From assembly GCA_034722055.1 (NCBI GenBank), contig JAYENL010000065.1:1-12997 (forward strand): a stretch of DNA of 12,997 bases, given 5' to 3'. The notes under the pieces were generated by a model, which was given only the letters and a program-made list of their open reading frames with translations, was not told the origin of the DNA and made no database searches. Position 1 is the first letter of the stretch. Each line of letters starts with the position of its first letter. Source of the DNA: Armatimonadota bacterium. Its GTDB lineage: Bacteria > Armatimonadota > Zipacnadia > Zipacnadales > UBA5352. Below, piece by piece: positions 1 to 4,124 of this stretch. The translations under genes were made by a program, and so were the position numbers.

Positions 1-124
1 CCGACCTGGGCCTGCCACAACTGCGCGTCAGGGACGCAGCCTCAATCTGATCGAACCGCCGTGTACGGACCCGTACGCACGGTGGTGTGACAGGGACAGC
101 CCGTGAGGGCCTACCTATGTCAAT
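1..124 (+). mobile_element. 3' end of a group II intron, class IIC (5' part lies outside the window)
   Basis: Domain V at 55-86 (ACCGCCGTGTACGGACCCGTACGCACGGTGGT) is a 32-nt hairpin with a CGC catalytic triad at 57-59, a CG bulge at 76-77 and a GACC loop. Domain VI at 89-121 pairs GACA/GGG with CCT(A)TGTC, with a bulged A at 117 and a GCCC-GTGA-GGGC GNRA hairpin at 99-110. The element ends in AT at 123-124. The short domain V with a CGC triad is typical of class IIC. Confidence 0.93.
3..50 (+). CDS. C-terminal end of the intron-encoded reverse transcriptase/maturase (partial)
   Basis: The frame from position 3 reads DLGLPQLRVRDAASI and stops with TGA at 48-50, four bases before domain V. An 'LGLPxL' ending directly before domain V is typical of class C intron-encoded proteins, which lack an endonuclease domain. 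Confidence 0.75.
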   Translation, partial: DLGLPQLRVRDAASI

Positions 125-215
125 CCTTGACGTTGTCGTTGTGGCCCGTGCGTGCGACCGACACGACGAATCGATACCCGCGGTCAGGTCAGTCGCTCTC
201 CGTCACCGCCAGACC
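124..215. repeat. Direct repeat, copy 1 (92 bp perfect; extends to 225 with 2 mismatches)
   Basis: TCCTTGACGTTGTCG...CACCGCCAGACC is identical to 343-434 at an offset of 219. Confidence 0.97.
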
Positions 216-307
216 GATGCCGGCCCCTCCGTACGACAGCAACACGCCCCGGAGCTGTTGCTCCATCGCAGGCCACCCACAAGACGCGGGTAATGCCTAG
301 GTCGTTC

Positions 308-343
308 GGAGCGGCGGCGTCTTTAGACCCGCCGGCCGTTTGT
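308..343 (+). terminator. REP-like or terminator-like hairpin followed by GTTTGT; putative group IIC target structure
   Basis: GGAGCGGCGGCGTCTTTAGACCCGCCG forms an imperfect stem, CGGCGG(C)GTCT/AGAC(C)CGCCG, followed by GCCGTTTGT. It lies downstream of the minus-strand gene run. Confidence 0.55.
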
Positions 344-434
344 CCTTGACGTTGTCGTTGTGGCCCGTGCGTGCGACCGACACGACGAATCGATACCCGC
401 GGTCAGGTCAGTCGCTCTCCGTCACCGCCAGACC
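343..434. repeat. Direct repeat, copy 2 (overlaps the last codons and stop of the minus-strand gene ending at 408)
   Basis: Identical to 124-215; extends to 444 with 2 mismatches. Confidence 0.97.
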
Positions 435-1355
435 AAGGCCGGCCTCCAGCCCGCCGGCGTAGTAGAGGTAGAGCCGGTCGTCCCACTCGAAGGGGTAGGG
501 ATCGCGGAGGTCGTCGCCCTCCCACTCGAGCGCTGGCTTCAGCACTGTGCCCAGACGCTCGGCCCGCCACTGCTGCGGCGGAGCCGAGGTGTCCACGCGC
601 GCCAGCCGGATGACCTCGCGGTCCAGCTCCGCCGAGGTGCGGGTCGAGTAGTAGACATCGAGCGTGCCGTCCCGGACGTGCATGCCGGAGTGCCGAATGA
701 TGCCGAAGTCCCCCTGGTCGTCGGGCCACAGCAGCGGCTCCTCTCGCACGCGCTCCCAGTGCAGGTAGTCGCGGCTGTGCAGGAGCCCCTGGCAGTTTCG
801 CGCCACGCCGGGGGCGGCTCGCTCGCCGCCGTTGCCCATGTAGAGCGCAAGGCTGCGGCCGCCCAGGCGGAACGGGCGCAGGTATGCGGTGGCGTTGCAG
901 TCCCACTAGCCCTCACGCTCGGATGGCCGGATCAGCGGCTCGGGCTCCTCCACCTCGAAGTGCAGGCCGTCGTAGGAGACCGCGCTGCCCATGACCTGCC
1001 CGCGACCGGCGGCGTTGCCGCCATGGTAGTAGAGGTAGAGGCGCTCCGCGTCCTCGTCGATGAGCACATCCGGGGAGGAGATGTGTCCCTCGAGCATGGG
1101 CGCGTCAGCGAGGTCGAAGACCGGGTCCTGGACCGTCCACGGGCCCTCAGGCTCGGACGCGGTCGCGAGGCCGATACCGGCGCCATGGTGGCTGGCATAG
1201 TACATGTAGAGCCGATCCAATGGCTCACCGACCCAGCCCGGCGCGCCGACGACCGTCGGGAACATCACCGACGGCCTGCTCGCCGGCCAGCGTATGGCGT
1301 CCCAGGTCAGGACCGGCTCATCGAACACGCGAGTGAACTGCGGCACGTCGGGCAT
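408..1355 (-). pseudogene. Five-bladed beta-propeller glycoside-hydrolase-like protein (GH43/GH32/GH130-type fold), interrupted by one in-frame TAG at 906-908 (nonsense mutation or readthrough)
   Basis: ORFs 906-1355 and 408-839 are in the same frame and join as ...LIRPSEREG*WDCNATAYLRPFRLGGRSLALYMGNGG... Repeated blade motifs are present: LYMYYASHHGAGIGLATA, SSPDVLID..LYLYYHG, DPYPFEWDDRLYLYYAG..AGLGLA. An AGGAGG RBS lies at 1363-1368. The joined frame is 315 codons. Confidence 0.8.
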
Positions 1356-1442: not shown

Positions 1443-4124
1443 TCACCGCTCCTCGGCCTTGTCCCTGAGCCGCGCCAGGGCCTGCAGGGCCTCCATGGGC
1501 GTCATGTTCTCGGGGTCGAGGGACCTCAGCTCCTCCACGATGGGGTGCGGGGCGGCCTCGAAGAGCTGAAGCTGGACCGTCGGCGCCACCCGTGCGGCCG
1601 CCTCCTGCGACGGGCCGATCTCGGTGCCGATGTCCTCGCGCTCAAGGGTGTGCAGGACCTCCCTGGCGCGGTCGATGACCGCCTGCGGGAGGCCGGCGAG
1701 GCGGGCCACCTGGATGCCGTAGGAGCGCTGCGTGCCGCCGGGCTCGATGCGGCGGAGGAAGGTGATCTGATCGCCCTCCTCGCGCACCATGACCTTCAGG
1801 TTCTGCACCTCGTCGAAGAGGGACTCCAGCTCGTTGAGGTGGTGGTAGTGGGTGGCGAAGAGGGTCTTGGCGCCGATCTGGTTGATGAGGTACTCGGCCA
1901 CCGCCCAGGCGATGGAGACGCCGTCGAAGGTGGAGGTGCCGCGGCCGATCTCGTCCAGGAGCACCAGTGACTGCGTGGTGGCGTTGTTCATGATGTTGGC
2001 GGCCTCGTTCATCTCCACCATGAAGGTGGAGCGGCCCGTGGCGAGGTCGTCGGAGGCCCCCACGCGGGTGAAGATGCGATCCACCACGCCGATGCGCGCG
2101 CTGTCGGCGGGCACGAAGCTGCCCATCTGCGCCATGAGCGTGATCAGCGCCACCTGCCGCAGGTAGGTGGACTTGCCGGACATGTTGGGGCCGGTGACGA
2201 TCTGCATCTGCCGGCTGTCACGATCCAGAAGGGTGTCATTGGGGACGAAGGGCTCCTGCCCCGGCGCGCGCTCGACGACCGGATGGCGGCCGGCGGTGAT
2301 CTGGATGACCTCGCCCGCGTCCACCTCCGGGCGCACGTAGTCGTACTCGATGGCGACCTCCGCCAGGCACACCAGCACATCGATGGCCGCCAGCGCCCGG
2401 GCGGTGGACAGCAGCGTCTCGGCGTGCTCCGCCACCTGGGCGCGCAGATCGCAGAACAGCTCGTACTCCAGCTCCTGCATCCGCTCCTCGGCACCGAGGA
2501 TCCTGGACTCCTGCTCCTTGAGCTCGGGGGTGATGTAGCGCTCGGCGGACGTGAGGGTCTGCTTGCGCTCGTAGTCCTCGGGCACCAGGTGCGTGTTGGC
2601 GTTGGTGACCTCCAGGTAGTAGCCGAAGACCTTGTTGTAGCCGACCTTCAGGTTCTCGATGCCCGTCCTGGCCCGCTCCTGGGCCTCCAGCTCCGCGATC
2701 CAGCGCTTGCCGCCGGAGGCGATGTCACGCAGCTCATCAAGCTCCTCGGAGTAGCCGTCGCGGATGATGTCGCCCTCGGTGATCTGCACCGGCGGCTCGT
2801 CCCCCAGCGCGCTGTCGAGCAGCGCCGTCACATCCTCCAGGGTGCCCATGCGTTCGCGGAGGCGCCCCAGCAGCTCGGCCTGGCAGCCCTCCAGCACGGT
2901 GACGATCTCGGGCAGTCGGCGCAGGGACTCGCGCAGGGAGACCAGGTCGCGGGCGTTGGCGCGGGCAGCGGTGACGCGGCTGGTGAGGCGCTCGATGTCG
3001 TAGACGTCGCGGAGGTGCGTGGCGAGGTCCTCGGCGGTGAGCCGGTCGGCGACGAGCTCATCCACCGCGTCCAGGCGCTGGTTGATGGCGGCCGGGTCCA
3101 GCAGCGGCTGCAGCAGCCAGTCGCGCAGCAGCCGGCCGCCCATGGCGGTGGAGGTGCGATCCATCAGCGACAGCAGAGAGCCCTCGCGGCGGTTGTCGCG
3201 GATGGTCCTGGTCAGCTCCAGGTTGCGGCGGGTGGCGGCGTCGATGACCAGGAACTGCTCCGTGGAGTAGGTTGTGATCCCCGAGAGGTGGGGTACGCCG
3301 TCGGGGTGGGTCTGCTGCAGGTAGCGGAGGGCCTGGGCGGCGGCGCTGACGGCCGCCGGCATCTCCTCGCAGCCGTACCCGCGCAGCGAGTCCACGCCGA
3401 AGTGCTCCTGAAGCTGCCCGGCCGGGGAGCTGAAGGCCATGCCATCCTCGTCCGCCACAGTCACGGGCGCCTCCATGCGCCGCGCCAGCAGCTCGCGCAG
3501 CTTCTCCTCCTCGGCCAGCTCCGGGTGGAGCAGGATCTCGGTGGGGGAGAGGCGCGTGGTCTCGTCCACCACCGCCGCCACCGATGGGTCGATGCCCTCC
3601 GGAGCGGTCTCGGGAAGCTCGGGTCGGTGGGGCTGGTGAGTCTGCTGGGGCGCGGGCTCGGTGACCAGGAAGTCGCCGGTGGAGACGTCCACGGCGGCGA
3701 GCCCGTAGCGGTCGCCGCTCCGCGCGATGGAGAGCAGGAAGTTGTGATCGCGGGTGTCCAGCAGCTCGTCCTCCACCAGCGTGCCGGCGGTCACCACCCG
3801 CGTGACCTGCCGGCGCACCAGGCCCTTGGCCTTGCTGGCGTCCTCCACCTGGTCGCAGATGGCGGCCCGGTAGCCCTTGCGGATGAGCTGGGCGAGGTAC
3901 TTCTGGGCGGCGTGGTAGGGCACGCCGCACATGGGCAGGTGGATGCCCTCACCGGCGCGGCGCTTGGTCAGCGTCAGCTCCAACTCGCGGGCGGCCACCT
4001 CCGCGTCGTCGCCAAACAGCTCGTAGAAGTCCCCCATGCGGAAGAGCAGCAGAACATCCGGGTACTGCTGCTTGGCCTCATGCCACTGCTTGAACACGGG
4101 GGTGAAGTTGCTGGGATCCGGCAC
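1443..4124 (-). CDS. mutS: DNA mismatch repair protein MutS (MutS1)
   Basis: Contains the mismatch-binding motif FRMGDFYELF, GVPYHAA, Walker A GPNMSGKST, STFMVEM, Walker B LLDEIGRGTST, FATHYH, SYGIQVARLAGLP and a C-terminal QLQLF clamp-binding-like motif. The start is placed at GTG 4124, behind an AGGAGGAG RBS at 4129-4136, giving 893 aa. Confidence 0.97.
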   Translation of the reverse strand: MPDPSNFTPVFKQWHEAKQQYPDVLLLFRMGDFYELFGDDAEVAARELELTLTKRRAGEGIHLPMCGVPYHAAQKYLAQLIRKGYRAAICDQVEDASKAKGLVRRQVTRVVTAGTLVEDELLDTRDHNFLLSIARSGDRYGLAAVDVSTGDFLVTEPAPQQTHQPHRPELPETAPEGIDPSVAAVVDETTRLSPTEILLHPELAEEEKLRELLARRMEAPVTVADEDGMAFSSPAGQLQEHFGVDSLRGYGCEEMPAAVSAAAQALRYLQQTHPDGVPHLSGITTYSTEQFLVIDAATRRNLELTRTIRDNRREGSLLSLMDRTSTAMGGRLLRDWLLQPLLDPAAINQRLDAVDELVADRLTAEDLATHLRDVYDIERLTSRVTAARANARDLVSLRESLRRLPEIVTVLEGCQAELLGRLRERMGTLEDVTALLDSALGDEPPVQITEGDIIRDGYSEELDELRDIASGGKRWIAELEAQERARTGIENLKVGYNKVFGYYLEVTNANTHLVPEDYERKQTLTSAERYITPELKEQESRILGAEERMQELEYELFCDLRAQVAEHAETLLSTARALAAIDVLVCLAEVAIEYDYVRPEVDAGEVIQITAGRHPVVERAPGQEPFVPNDTLLDRDSRQMQIVTGPNMSGKSTYLRQVALITLMAQMGSFVPADSARIGVVDRIFTRVGASDDLATGRSTFMVEMNEAANIMNNATTQSLVLLDEIGRGTSTFDGVSIAWAVAEYLINQIGAKTLFATHYHHLNELESLFDEVQNLKVMVREEGDQITFLRRIEPGGTQRSYGIQVARLAGLPQAVIDRAREVLHTLEREDIGTEIGPSQEAAARVAPTVQLQLFEAAPHPIVEELRSLDPENMTPMEALQALARLRDKAEER

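What the first reader, a model, noticed from the sequence alone, without database searches (positions are those of the whole stretch)
53..444. Group IIC intron sits beside a duplicated, unoccupied copy of its own target site
Seen in the sequence: the intron 3' end (..TGTCAAT, 124) is followed by CCTTGACG..., and the same sequence recurs 219 bp later, preceded by a hairpin (313-333) and GCCGTTTGT. The repeat boundary coincides with the splice junction. Established: class IIC introns insert a few nucleotides downstream of DNA stem-loops (terminators, attC sites) using a short IBS1, and TTGT is the IBS1 reported for attC-targeting IIC introns. Inference: 308-434 shows the pre-insertion site (hairpin-TTGT|C, so IBS3 = C). 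The locus would then carry one occupied and one empty target, and the intron would be targeting a REP-like hairpin rather than a classical U-tract terminator or attC.
Basis: partly seen in the sequence, partly recalled or inferred. Interest (0 to 1): 0.75.

Follow-up and report, generated by a model that had tools for sequence, protein, structure and literature searches.

The report
Group IIC intron beside duplicated empty target
A multi-copy self-splicing retroelement (group IIC intron) sits in one of two tandem copies of a repeated DNA hairpin site, leaving the second copy empty; this is a clean natural before/after view of an insertion, but it is ordinary behaviour for this kind of intron.

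Summary
Window 1-124 is the 3' end of a group II intron (Rfam RF00029). Window 124-225 recurs at 343-444 with 2 mismatches in 102 nt. The window starts at a contig end inside the intron. The predicted 5' exon (...AGACCCGCCGGCCGTTTGT|GTGTG) lies on contig C20. C20 is the syntenic left neighbour in a same-genus genome.

The 219-bp tandem duplication is present in the reads. k=31 unitigs from 3 runs span the new junction at about single-copy depth, a contig of a fourth run crosses it, and the duplicated parts have about 2x depth in the two runs where both could be measured.

The intron is class IIC. Its DV triad reads CGC. The protein of the nearest full-length relative matches GsI-IIC RT best and lacks an endonuclease domain. 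9 of 10 5' exons carry a hairpin.

EBS1 is ACGU and EBS3 is G, placed by covariation over 79 relatives. The preferred site is NCGT|C, so TTGT|C is a weaker wobble variant.

The hairpin belongs to a REP-like family of 58 copies. Most carry equal or better motifs and are not seen occupied, so an empty twin is not exceptional.

Verdict: a new member of a known kind, of modest interest.

The parts
1..124 (+). Last 124 nt of a multi-copy group IIC intron. The rest is not assembled because the contig starts here.
   Evidence: Window = G000:C65:1-12997. 13 further contig ends carry the same sequence at 99-100%. RF00029 hit at 54-124.
3..50 (+). Probable C-terminal codons of the intron-encoded protein (...DLGLPQLRVRDAASI, stop TGA at 48-50).
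   Evidence: My own reading of frame 3 of the sequence. The LGLP.L motif resembles RSLGVPFL at the C-terminus of the relative's IEP. A Logan contig of 864 nt at high depth extends 781 nt upstream of window position 1, so the element is at least 905 nt long and not the 647-nt ORF-less form. Inference.
55..86 (+). Domain V. The catalytic triad reads CGC (57-59) where the Rfam consensus has AGC.
   Evidence: Alignment to RF00029. Structure used for model R2.
89..121 (+). Domain VI with bulged A117, the candidate branch point 7 nt from the 3' end.
   Evidence: RF00029 structure line; model R2.
125..225 (+). Copy 1 of the duplicated 3' exon. It includes a detached copy of the last 12 codons plus stop (189-225, minus strand) of the neighbouring gene and keeps the ancestral GATGCC at 216-221.
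   Evidence: The same-genus genome G001 has GATGCC at this codon.
221..225 (.). CGGCC microhomology at the duplication junction.
   Evidence: Window/C20 identity runs 221-343. Copy1/copy2 identity runs 124-225.
221..343 (+). Second copy of the 5'-exon sequence, 100% identical to the last 123 nt before the intron on contig C20.
301..367 (+). REP-like element that spans the insertion point: GTCGTTCGGAG, hairpin, GCCGTTTGT | CCTTGACGTTGTCGTTGTGGCCC.
   Evidence: 58 copies in G000 cover the hairpin. Copies also occur in relatives G001, G006, G008, G009, G010, G012, G019, G020.
311..333 (+). Core stem-loop of the target (6+3 bp with a 1-nt bulge, loop TTTA).
340..344 (+). Unoccupied target: IBS1 TTGT (340-343) | IBS3 C (344).
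   Evidence: Matches the occupied junction on C20 and window 124|125. EBS1/EBS3 assignment.
344..444 (+). Copy 2 of the duplicated segment, continuous with the gene. It carries AAGGCC at 435-440 (Leu where copy 1 and G001 have Ile).
408..1355 (-). Glycoside-hydrolase-43-like gene (weak Pfam hit) whose 3' end is part of the duplication. It has an in-frame TGA at 906-908.
   Evidence: The orthologue in G003 is an intact 313-aa ORF.

Best explanation
The locus reads, on the + strand: contig C20 (threonine-dehydratase-like gene, unknown ORF, bPH-like membrane gene, MITE-like repeat, segment X) - [group IIC intron] - Y - X - Y' - GH43-like gene - mutS. X (123 nt) ends in a REP-like hairpin plus GCCGTTTGT. 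Y (about 100 nt) starts CCTTGACG and runs into the last 12 codons of the GH43-like gene.

A 219-bp X+Y unit was duplicated in tandem by a slip between two CGGCC microhomologies. A highly proliferated IIC retroelement then reverse-spliced into the upstream X|Y junction only. Recognition uses the DNA stem-loop plus a 3-4-nt EBS1 (ACGU) - IBS1 pairing and an EBS3 (G) - IBS3 (C) pair.

Shown here: the intron class features, the junction sequences, the duplication and its copy number, and the EBS/IBS positions. Inferred: the order of events (duplication first), that the intron is still mobile, and that the second site is empty because TTGT is a weak, wobble-paired IBS1 and homing into this REP family is rare.
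For: Intron identity:
- RF00029 at the window 3' end.
- RF02001 (D1-D4) at 125-129 bits on the 5' parts held by C54 and C81.
- 5' GUGUG and 3' ...AAU ends; DV triad CGC (alignment).
- The nearest full-length relative (L034, 1995 nt, 96% identical over DV-DVI) encodes RVT_1 + GIIM with no HNH domain. Its best PDB match is GsI-IIC RT at 470.6 bits, followed by three other entries labelled group II intron RT/maturase or retron-type RT at 353-280 bits, which I recall to be group IIC maturases. LtrA scores 130.9 and 6me0 scores 106.1.

Copy number: 14 contig ends carry the 3' end and 10 carry the 5' end, at 97-100% identity. Unitig depth suggests about 16-29 copy-equivalents per genome.

Target rule:
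- 9/10 5' exons have a hairpin, and 7/10 fall in the lowest 10% of the genomic MFE background.
- The last four bases are TCGT x3, GCGT x2, CCGT x2, ACGT, ACGC and TTGT.
- The first 3'-exon base is C in 8, T in 4, A in 1 and G in 1 of 14.

EBS1/EBS3: the positions were placed with my own covariance models on 79 relatives.
- Watson-Crick pairing at -1/-2/-3/-4 was found in 51/48/52/25 of 54 distinct pairs.
- The mean was 3.26 pairs, against 1.72 in shuffles (maximum 2.11 in 2000 shuffles).
- Only loop register 3-6 pairs.
- Bulge AA goes with T in 21/23 and AG with C in 34/36.
- Within the family, G014 has loop CGGC with exon GCCG.

Adjacency of C20 and C65: C20 ends in X|intron 5'. In same-genus genome G001, the C20 genes abut the end of the GH43-like gene directly.

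Duplication in the reads:
- The unitig 186-250 across the new junction has depth 59.1 / 12.7 / 26.9 in runs X1 / X2 / X3. Flank depth there is 56.9 / 16.3 / 58.4 beside the locus, falling to 37.9 further on in X3.
- X has depth 125 / 22.5 / 75, and Y has 124 / 34 (X1 / X2).
- The intron|Y junction has depth 61 (X1).
- The empty junction has depth 88.9 (X1).
- A contig of run X4 covers 125-321 and crosses the new junction.
Against: - The intron interior is not assembled, so the C20-intron-C65 link rests on synteny and junction logic, not on a spanning sequence.
- The runs are Logan contigs (k=31) from one study and may include the sample the genome was built from. They prove the junctions and copy numbers but not the order of the parts, which comes from the two contigs.
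- In X3 the junction depth is only about half to 0.7 of the flank, so part of that population may lack the duplication.
- The two differences between the copies fall in one codon of the gene-attached copy. Simple neutral divergence after a recent duplication does not predict that.
- The empty-junction depth in X1 (1.56x flank) is unexplained. Shared REP words or some cells with both sites empty could account for it.
- Intron activity (splicing, mobility) was not tested.
Confidence: 0.85

Rival explanations
1. Assembly artefact or strain mixture. Occupied and empty alleles of a single-copy site, from different cells of the metagenome, were stitched into one contig, and there is no real duplication.
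For: The genome is a metagenome-assembled draft of 330 contigs, broken at every intron copy. No single Logan record spans 124-445. In X3 the junction depth is below the flank depth.
Against: A mixture cannot create the new Y->X junction. That junction is present as its own unitig in 3 runs and inside a 197-nt contig of a fourth, at about 1x flank depth in X1 and X2. X and Y both sit at about 2x there. Copy 1 carries the ancestral GATGCC, which the gene-attached copy lacks, so the two copies are distinct sequences.
Confidence: 0.04
2. The duplication is a by-product of intron mobility, for example aberrant priming or repair at a replication fork during retrohoming that re-copied the flanks. It would then be a long target-site duplication.
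For: One repeat boundary coincides with the splice junction. Endonuclease-less IIC introns are thought to use nascent strands at forks as primers (my recollection, not checked here).
Against: - The coincidence follows trivially from insertion at the X|Y junction of an existing X-Y-X-Y array.
- The actual duplication joint lies 101 nt downstream of the intron, in a CGGCC microhomology.
- None of the other 13 3' flanks has a local second copy. The two other look-alike pairs lie on other contigs and belong to repeat arrays.
- The gene-attached copy has since acquired two substitutions.
Confidence: 0.05
3. The intron inserted first, the whole X-intron-Y unit was duplicated, and the downstream copy later lost its intron precisely (for example by recombination with a spliced cDNA).
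For: It cannot be excluded from sequence alone. Precise intron loss is documented for group II introns (recollection).
Against: It needs two rare events where one would do. The depths of the intron|Y junction (61, against flank 56.9) and the empty junction give no sign of a second occupied copy in the population.
Confidence: 0.05

Closest known systems
Bacterial class C (IIC) group II introns that insert after terminator stem-loops or other inverted repeats (B.h.I1 of Bacillus halodurans, PMC1702495; O. iheyensis intron, PMC3669008; GsI-IIC of Geobacillus stearothermophilus, PDB 6AR1)
   Same: - Short IBS1-EBS1 of 3-4 bp in an 8-nt loop of domain I.
- A single-base EBS3-IBS3 pair.
- A hairpin where IBS2 would be, with the insertion 1-9 nt after the predicted MFE pairing, 10 nt after the core stem at the window site. 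PMC1702495 reports 3-11 nt.
- CGC triad in domain V.
- An RT/maturase without an endonuclease domain. The relative's protein scores 470 bits to GsI-IIC RT.
- Many near-identical copies in one genome.
   Different: - The host is an uncultured high-GC (68%) bacterium from brine metagenomes.
- At this site the hairpin is a dispersed REP-like repeat without a U tract, lying antisense to both flanking genes, rather than the terminator of a co-oriented gene.
- IBS1 here uses a G.U wobble.
IIC-attC introns of integrons (S.ma.I2 lineage), consensus target TTGT/T (PMC7923331 passages; PMC3001079 abstract only)
   Same: The target is a repeated, non-terminator DNA hairpin. The orientation is opposite to neighbouring gene transcription. 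The four bases before this particular insertion are TTGT.
   Different: - EBS1 here is ACGU and the genome-wide preference is NCGT|C.
- IBS3 is C, not T.
- The hairpin is flanked by direct GTCGT motifs and does not look like an attC site to my eye.
- I did not search the genome for an integron integrase.
Association of mobile elements with REP sequences (Tobes & Pareja 2006, PMC1525189: table row 'Group II intron 2/9, 22.2%' for Pseudomonas putida KT2440)
   Same: A group II intron is found in or next to REP elements of its host, alongside REP-targeting IS elements.
   Different: I read only a table row, which gives no mechanism. Here the insertion point inside the repeat unit, the pairing rules and an uninterrupted twin of the same unit are all defined.

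Membership tests
Group II intron (ribozyme) | Domain V-VI match with a bulged branch A and a 3' end of type ...AY | tested here: met
   RF00029 at 40.0 bits, which equals but does not exceed the gathering score, at window 54-124. A117 is bulged. The 3' end is AAT. My own model R2 scores 103 bits.
Group II intron (ribozyme) | Domain I-IV core and a 5' GUGYG end | tested here: met
   10 contig ends start GTGTGCC. RF02001 scores 124.6-129.4 bits on C54 and C81, cut off at the contig end. This was tested on other copies, because the window copy's 5' part on C20 holds only 59 nt.
Class IIC | Domain V catalytic triad CGC instead of AGC | tested here: met
   In the alignment the consensus GAGCCGU aligns to CCGCCGU. 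That CGC marks IIC introns is my recollection; PMC3669008 mentions only G359 of the O. iheyensis triad.
Class IIC | [quoted passage not shown] | tested here: met
   A hairpin is present in 9 of 10 5' exons. The Rfam structure that fits the sequence has a single exon-binding loop. The absence of an EBS2 pairing was not searched for exhaustively.
Class IIC | IBS1-EBS1 of only 3-4 bp, and an EBS3-IBS3 pair | tested here: met
   Covariation in 54 and 59 distinct relatives. G000 junctions.
Class IIC | Intron-encoded protein of the class C lineage, with RT and X domains and no endonuclease domain | tested here: inconclusive
   This is met for the nearest full-length relative L034. The window intron's own ORF is not assembled; only a plausible 16-residue C-terminus is seen at 3-50.
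IIC-attC sublineage | Insertion in the bottom strand of integron attC sites at TTGT/T | tested here: not met
   EBS1 is ACGU and EBS3 is G. 9/10 sites are NCGY (8 NCGT, 1 ACGC) and IBS3 is mostly C. Integron integrase was not searched.
REP / BIME-type repeats (for the target) | A short imperfect palindrome, dispersed in many intergenic copies, often in arrays | tested here: met
   58 copies cover the hairpin. The core CGGAGCGGCGG occurs 132 times. Paired or tandem copies occur on C110, C106, C259 and C253. Copies are present in 8 relatives.
REP / BIME-type repeats (for the target) | A cognate RAYT (Y1 transposase) flanked by the repeats | tested here: not met
   There are 6 Y1_Tnp loci in G000. 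None has this repeat within about 1.5 kb of the Y1_Tnp match, less where a locus is cut by a contig end.

The most novel reading that the evidence does not exclude
The intron lineage in this bacterium has tuned its exon-binding bases (EBS1 ACGU, EBS3 G) to the conserved ...GTTTGTCGT|C tail of the host's own REP/BIME-type repeats. Self-multiplying repeat arrays would then serve as a renewable supply of harmless landing pads. Local duplications of such units, as in this window, would create fresh empty sites next to resident copies, giving a two-layer parasite-on-repeat system.
Probability: 0.2. Interest if true: 0.45.

Novelty: new member of a known kind. Interest (0 to 1): 0.3.

Why it matters
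The locus is a tidy natural control. The same 219-bp unit sits twice in one chromosome, once with and once without the intron. This shows a scar-free insertion exactly between TTGT and C, with no target-site duplication of its own.

Together with the other 9 5' and 13 3' junctions, it gives a complete target rule for a highly proliferated IIC intron in a little-studied lineage: a hairpin, a few nt, then NCGT|C.

It also shows that REP-like repeats, and not only terminators or attC sites, serve as IIC landing sites. Even so, most such sites stay empty. That bears on what limits IIC intron spread, but it does not change the current picture of these elements.

Tried and rejected
- Rfam at gathering threshold over the whole window listed nothing. 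The DV-DVI hit appeared only in the E-value mode, at exactly the gathering score.
- A search for the intron's maturase domain in the genome (PF08388) found none. The interior is missing from the assembly (smallest contig 1525 nt), so the window intron's own protein could not be examined.
- The G014 relative (L032) has a 90%-identical 5' part, but no 3' end was found. I used it only for the EBS1 comparison.
- Single copies in G011 and G032 do not fit the EBS3 rule (G with G, C with C). The G032 5' exon does not fit its EBS1 loop either. I treated these as ectopic or decayed copies and relied on the 79-locus survey.
None of the 6 Y1_Tnp loci carries this repeat nearby.
- Scanning the region for classical terminators and sigma-70 promoters gave 0 hits.
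- A look-up of earlier findings by sequence returned nothing.
- Two Pfam calls failed on coordinates containing stop codons. I repeated them with correct ORFs.
- Coverage gaps in X4 (bins 361-420) are uninformative.
Full report
**What is in the window.** The window is the first 12,997 nt of contig C65 of a 330-contig draft genome (G000, 6.14 Mb, 68% G+C). Earlier notes of this scan call the organism an uncultured Armatimonadota bacterium; I did not check that.

Positions 54-124 (+) match Rfam RF00029, group II intron domains V-VI, at 40.0 bits. That equals the gathering score, so the default search did not list it; the E-value search did. A covariance model I built from three family members scores window 50-124 at 103 bits and ends at 124.

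Domain V reads CCGCCGUG...CACGGUGG, with CGC where the consensus triad is AGC. Domain VI has a bulged A117, 7 nt from the end.

The direct repeat is real. Window 124-225 matches 343-444 over 102 nt, with spacing 219 and mismatches only at 216 and 218.

**The intron is a multi-copy element that breaks the assembly.**
- Fourteen contig ends carry the same 3' end at 99-100% identity, each followed by a different 3' exon.
- Ten contig ends carry a common 5' end, GTGTGCCGGGCATG.... Up to 249 nt of it are held, and they match Rfam RF02001 (domains I-IV) at 125-129 bits.
- No maturase domain is found in the genome. The smallest contig is 1525 nt, so the roughly 1.5-kb interior was probably lost with the short contigs. 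This is an inference.
- Logan unitigs of the intron 3' end have 16-29 times the depth of the flanking single-copy gene in runs X1-X3. That suggests more copies than the 14 seen, if all belong to this organism.
- An 864-nt Logan contig reaches 781 nt upstream of window position 1, and frame 3 of window 3-50 ends ...DLGLPQLRVRDAASI*. The element is therefore most likely ORF-bearing.

**Class.**
- The nearest full-length relative (L034, from a same-order genome) is 1995 nt long. It is 96% identical over domains V-VI and 72% over the 5' 249 nt.
- It encodes a 478-aa ORF with RVT_1 and GIIM domains only.
- Its best PDB match is GsI-IIC RT (6AR1, 470.6 bits, full length), then three other entries at 353-280 bits. 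Their titles read 'Group II intron reverse transcriptase/maturase' and 'Retron-type reverse transcriptase'; that they are group IIC maturases is my recollection.
- LtrA scores 130.9 bits and the maturase of 6ME0 scores 106.1 bits. That LtrA is class IIA and 6ME0 class IIB is also my recollection.
- With the CGC triad, the short IBS1 and the hairpins (below), the IIC assignment is sound. The one caveat is that the window copy's own protein is unseen.

**The predicted 5' exon exists.** Contig C20 (minus strand) ends ...CACCCACAAGACGCGGGTAATGCCTAGGTCGTTCGGAGCGGCGGCGTCTTTAGACCCGCCGGCCGTTTGT|GTGTGCCGGG.
- Its last 123 nt before the intron are 100% identical to window 221-343. Further upstream it diverges into a MITE-like repeat.
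- C20 and C65 are true neighbours. In the same-genus genome G001, the C20 genes (82% identity over 1.5 kb) abut the stop of the GH43-like gene of the window directly.
- In G003 the two genes are also adjacent.
- Relative to G001, G000 therefore has about 0.9 kb of repeats plus the intron inserted between two co-oriented minus-strand genes. The intron lies antisense to both.

**The duplication.** Call the 5'-exon segment X (window 221-343) and the 3'-exon segment Y (125-225 and 344-444). The contigs give A-X-[intron]-Y-X-Y'-gene.
- The new Y->X joint lies in a 5-nt microhomology, CGGCC (221-225).
- Y contains the last 12 codons and the stop of the GH43-like gene, so copy 1 carries a detached gene tail.
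- At the only variable codon, copy 1 has GATGCC like G001, while the gene-attached copy 2 has AAGGCC, changing Ile to Leu. Copy 1 keeps the ancestral state, so the two copies are distinct sequences.

Evidence from the reads:

| Feature | X1 | X2 | X3 |
|---|---|---|---|
| Unitig 186-250 across the new joint | 59.1 | 12.7 | 26.9 |
| Flanking gene | 56.9 | 16.3 | 58.4 beside the locus, 37.9 further on |
| X (221-336) | 125 | 22.5 | 75 |
| Y (92-nt unit) | 124 | 34 | not separable |
| Intron\|Y junction (98-153) | 61 | not listed | not listed |
| Empty junction (315-372) | 88.9 | not listed | 62.4 (record 315-434) |

- Run X4 has one contig covering 125-321.
- A loose end at 221 reproduces the C20 sequence.
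- These are k=31 contigs from one study and may include the source sample. They prove the junctions and roughly two copies of X and Y per genome, but not the order of parts.
- The order rests on the two draft contigs, whose roughly 124-127-nt shared intron ends suggest a k of about 127, large enough to resolve both repeats. This is an inference.
- No record spans the whole array.

**Target rule in this genome.**
- The last four bases of the ten 5' exons are TCGT (3), GCGT (2), CCGT (2), ACGT, ACGC and TTGT (C20).
- Nine of ten have a hairpin, with 1-9 nt between the last base paired in the MFE fold and the junction (10 nt from the core stem at the window site). Seven fall in the lowest 10% of a 1500-window genomic MFE background. 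C104 has none.
- The first 3'-exon base is C in 8, T in 4, A in 1 and G in 1 of 14.

**EBS1 and EBS3.** The Rfam structure fits the G000 sequence with all 43 pairs canonical. It puts an 8-nt loop, GCACGUGA, at intron nt 180-187 and an AG bulge in GUAGAU at nt 224-225.

To fix the positions independently, I fetched 79 loci that encode relatives of the L034 protein. They are 55-62% identical and come mostly from Acidobacteriota, Alphaproteobacteria and Planctomycetota MAGs. I built two covariance models, aligned 83 hits for each and extracted the junctions. Results:
- Among 54 distinct loop/5'-exon pairs, loop bases 3, 4, 5 and 6 form Watson-Crick pairs with exon bases -1, -2, -3 and -4 in 51, 48, 52 and 25 cases.
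- The mean is 3.26 pairs, against 1.72 in 2000 shuffles (maximum 2.11).
- The other four loop registers give 0.72-1.26.
- Among 59 distinct rows (3' exons that were another intron copy were dropped), an AA bulge goes with T in 21 of 23 and an AG bulge with C in 34 of 36.
- Rows without a recognisable GTGYGCY 5' end at 80-105 nt upstream, or without a complete 3' hit, were left out.
- Within the family, G014 has loop CGGC with exon GCCG.

This agrees with the O. iheyensis structure: EBS1 AUAA with exon UUAU, and EBS3 A223 with U+1 (PMC3669008, passages read).

For the window's intron, EBS1 is therefore ACGU and EBS3 is G, and the ideal site is ACGT|C. The site TTGT|C pairs as A-T, C-G, G.T and a U.T mismatch, plus G-C at +1. 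It is the only one of ten junctions with a wobble at -3. G.U at -3 occurs in 1 of 54 relatives.

**The hairpin is a REP-like repeat that spans the insertion point.**
- BLAST with window 296-372 finds 58 copies covering the hairpin, counting the window copy and the C20 copy.
- The consensus is about ...GTCGTCCGGAGCGGCGGCGTCTTCAGACCCGCCGGCCGTTTGTCGTCAGCCGTTGTCGTTGTGGCCCC.
- Several copies align through window 367, which is 24 nt past the insertion point. The uninterrupted 343|344 junction is thus the native state of the repeat unit.
- The core CGGAGCGGCGG occurs 132 times, and CGTTTGTCGT occurs 70 times, against about 5 expected from base composition by my arithmetic.
- Copies occur in 8 of 20 relatives searched.
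- Neither strand scores as a U-tract terminator.
- No RAYT-type transposase locus (6 found) carries the repeat nearby.
- Of the 58 copies, 54 have NCGT followed by a pyrimidine within 24 nt of the stem, 19 have TCGT|C and 24 have TTGT|C. Only the C20 copy is seen occupied. At least 4 5' junctions remain unassembled.

An unoccupied twin is therefore not surprising. The genome is full of unoccupied sites that look as good or better.

**Other occupied/empty look-alikes.**
- The 5' exon of the C238 copy is 99% identical over 100 nt to one of two tandem, empty REP units at the start of C253.
- The 3' exon of the C314 copy is 97% identical over 77 nt to C240:24371-24447, where it follows an empty hairpin-...CCGTCGT| site.
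- None of the other 13 3' flanks has a second copy nearby on its own contig. This argues against the intron itself generating flank duplications.
- Four of ten 5' exons lie in dispersed repeats that reach or come within 5 nt of the junction (C17, C20, C238, C259).
- Five have no repeat at the junction: four are unique, and C104 has repeat hits only in its distal half.
- One (C323) has a single weaker match.

The intron targets hairpins in general, not REPs specifically.

**Literature.**
- IIC introns lie after terminator motifs 'or other inverted repeats', with splice sites 3-11 nt after the stem-loop (PMC1702495, abstract and passages).
- IIC-attC introns insert at TTGT/T (PMC7923331, passages).
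- A table in PMC1525189 lists a group II intron as REP-associated in 2 of 9 copies in Pseudomonas putida KT2440; I read only that row.
- One full-text search for 'group II intron' with 'repetitive extragenic palindromic' returned 9 papers, and none dealt with IIC targeting of REPs in its title or abstract. I opened passages of two of them.
- I did not find the occupied/empty tandem arrangement described, but I made no dedicated search for it.

**Verdict.** The observation and most of the interpretation are correct. The biology is the expected behaviour of a proliferating IIC retroelement that lands beside DNA hairpins, here in a repeat unit that had been duplicated in tandem by a microhomology slip. 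It is a new member of a known kind, useful as a worked example and of modest interest.

Noticed in passing
window 906-908 (minus strand), within gene 408-1355: The GH43-like gene has an in-frame TGA (REG*WDCN). The same-genus genome G001 has TGG there and the G003 orthologue is an intact 313-aa ORF. It could be a nonsense mutation, a pseudogene or an assembly variant. The position lies outside the stretch I laid reads on.
   Followed up: partly
L017 (contig C20) 183-341, i.e. C20 reverse strand 2730-2888, next to X: A MITE-like repeat with inverted ends of the type GGTTCCACCCC...GGGATGGAACC gives 20-44 BLAST HSPs per position across 47 contigs. Related sequences end 15 contigs (groups of 8 and 7). 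On C326 the repeat's end is again followed by an X-like segment at 74% identity, so X may be part of a composite repeat.
   Followed up: partly
G000 contig ends: C114, C129, C157, C208, C273, C313, C42, C43; and C135, C151, C188, C304, C9: Two further repeat families end 8 and 5 contigs. They start ...CCTAAGTTATGCGCC... and ...CCTACATTATGCGC.... Several are preceded by GCAGGCTGGAACC, half of another hairpin repeat (GCAGGCTGGAAGCCTGC). They look like IS elements that also target a REP-type hairpin.
   Followed up: no
L019 (G000:C293:9000-13500) 2175-2472, minus strand: There is a second, different group II intron. Its DV-DVI scores 43.7 bits, and a weak D1-D4 hit (25.5 bits) lies only about 60 nt upstream, so it may be an ORF-less copy.
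   Followed up: no
L033 (G011:C79:1500-6000) 898-1544: An ORF-less derivative of the same intron family, about 647 nt long. It is 79% identical over the 5' 249 nt, 84% over the last 94 nt, and has the same EBS1 loop.
   Followed up: partly
L102 1438-1600; L058, L084 and L085 (genome contigs relatives): Head-to-tail tandem introns. One copy starts immediately after the 3' end (...TGTCGAT|GTGTGCC) of another, as if domain VI served as the target hairpin. L085 holds an array with four domain-I hits and three DV-DVI hits.
   Followed up: no
L044, L049-L054, L067, L069, L074, L076, L081, L088 and others: Many Acidobacteriota and Alphaproteobacteria relatives sit after one conserved motif...GCCGC-GNNA-GCGGCTTCGTT|CAA..., in different genomes. 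That suggests another repeated hairpin target for that sublineage.
   Followed up: no
G000:C253:1-230 and C238:5541-5640; C240:24250-24447 and C314:42-118: Two more near-identical occupied/empty target pairs exist in the same genome (99% over 100 nt, 97% over 77 nt). The first involves two tandem REP units with a 117-nt period.
   Followed up: partly
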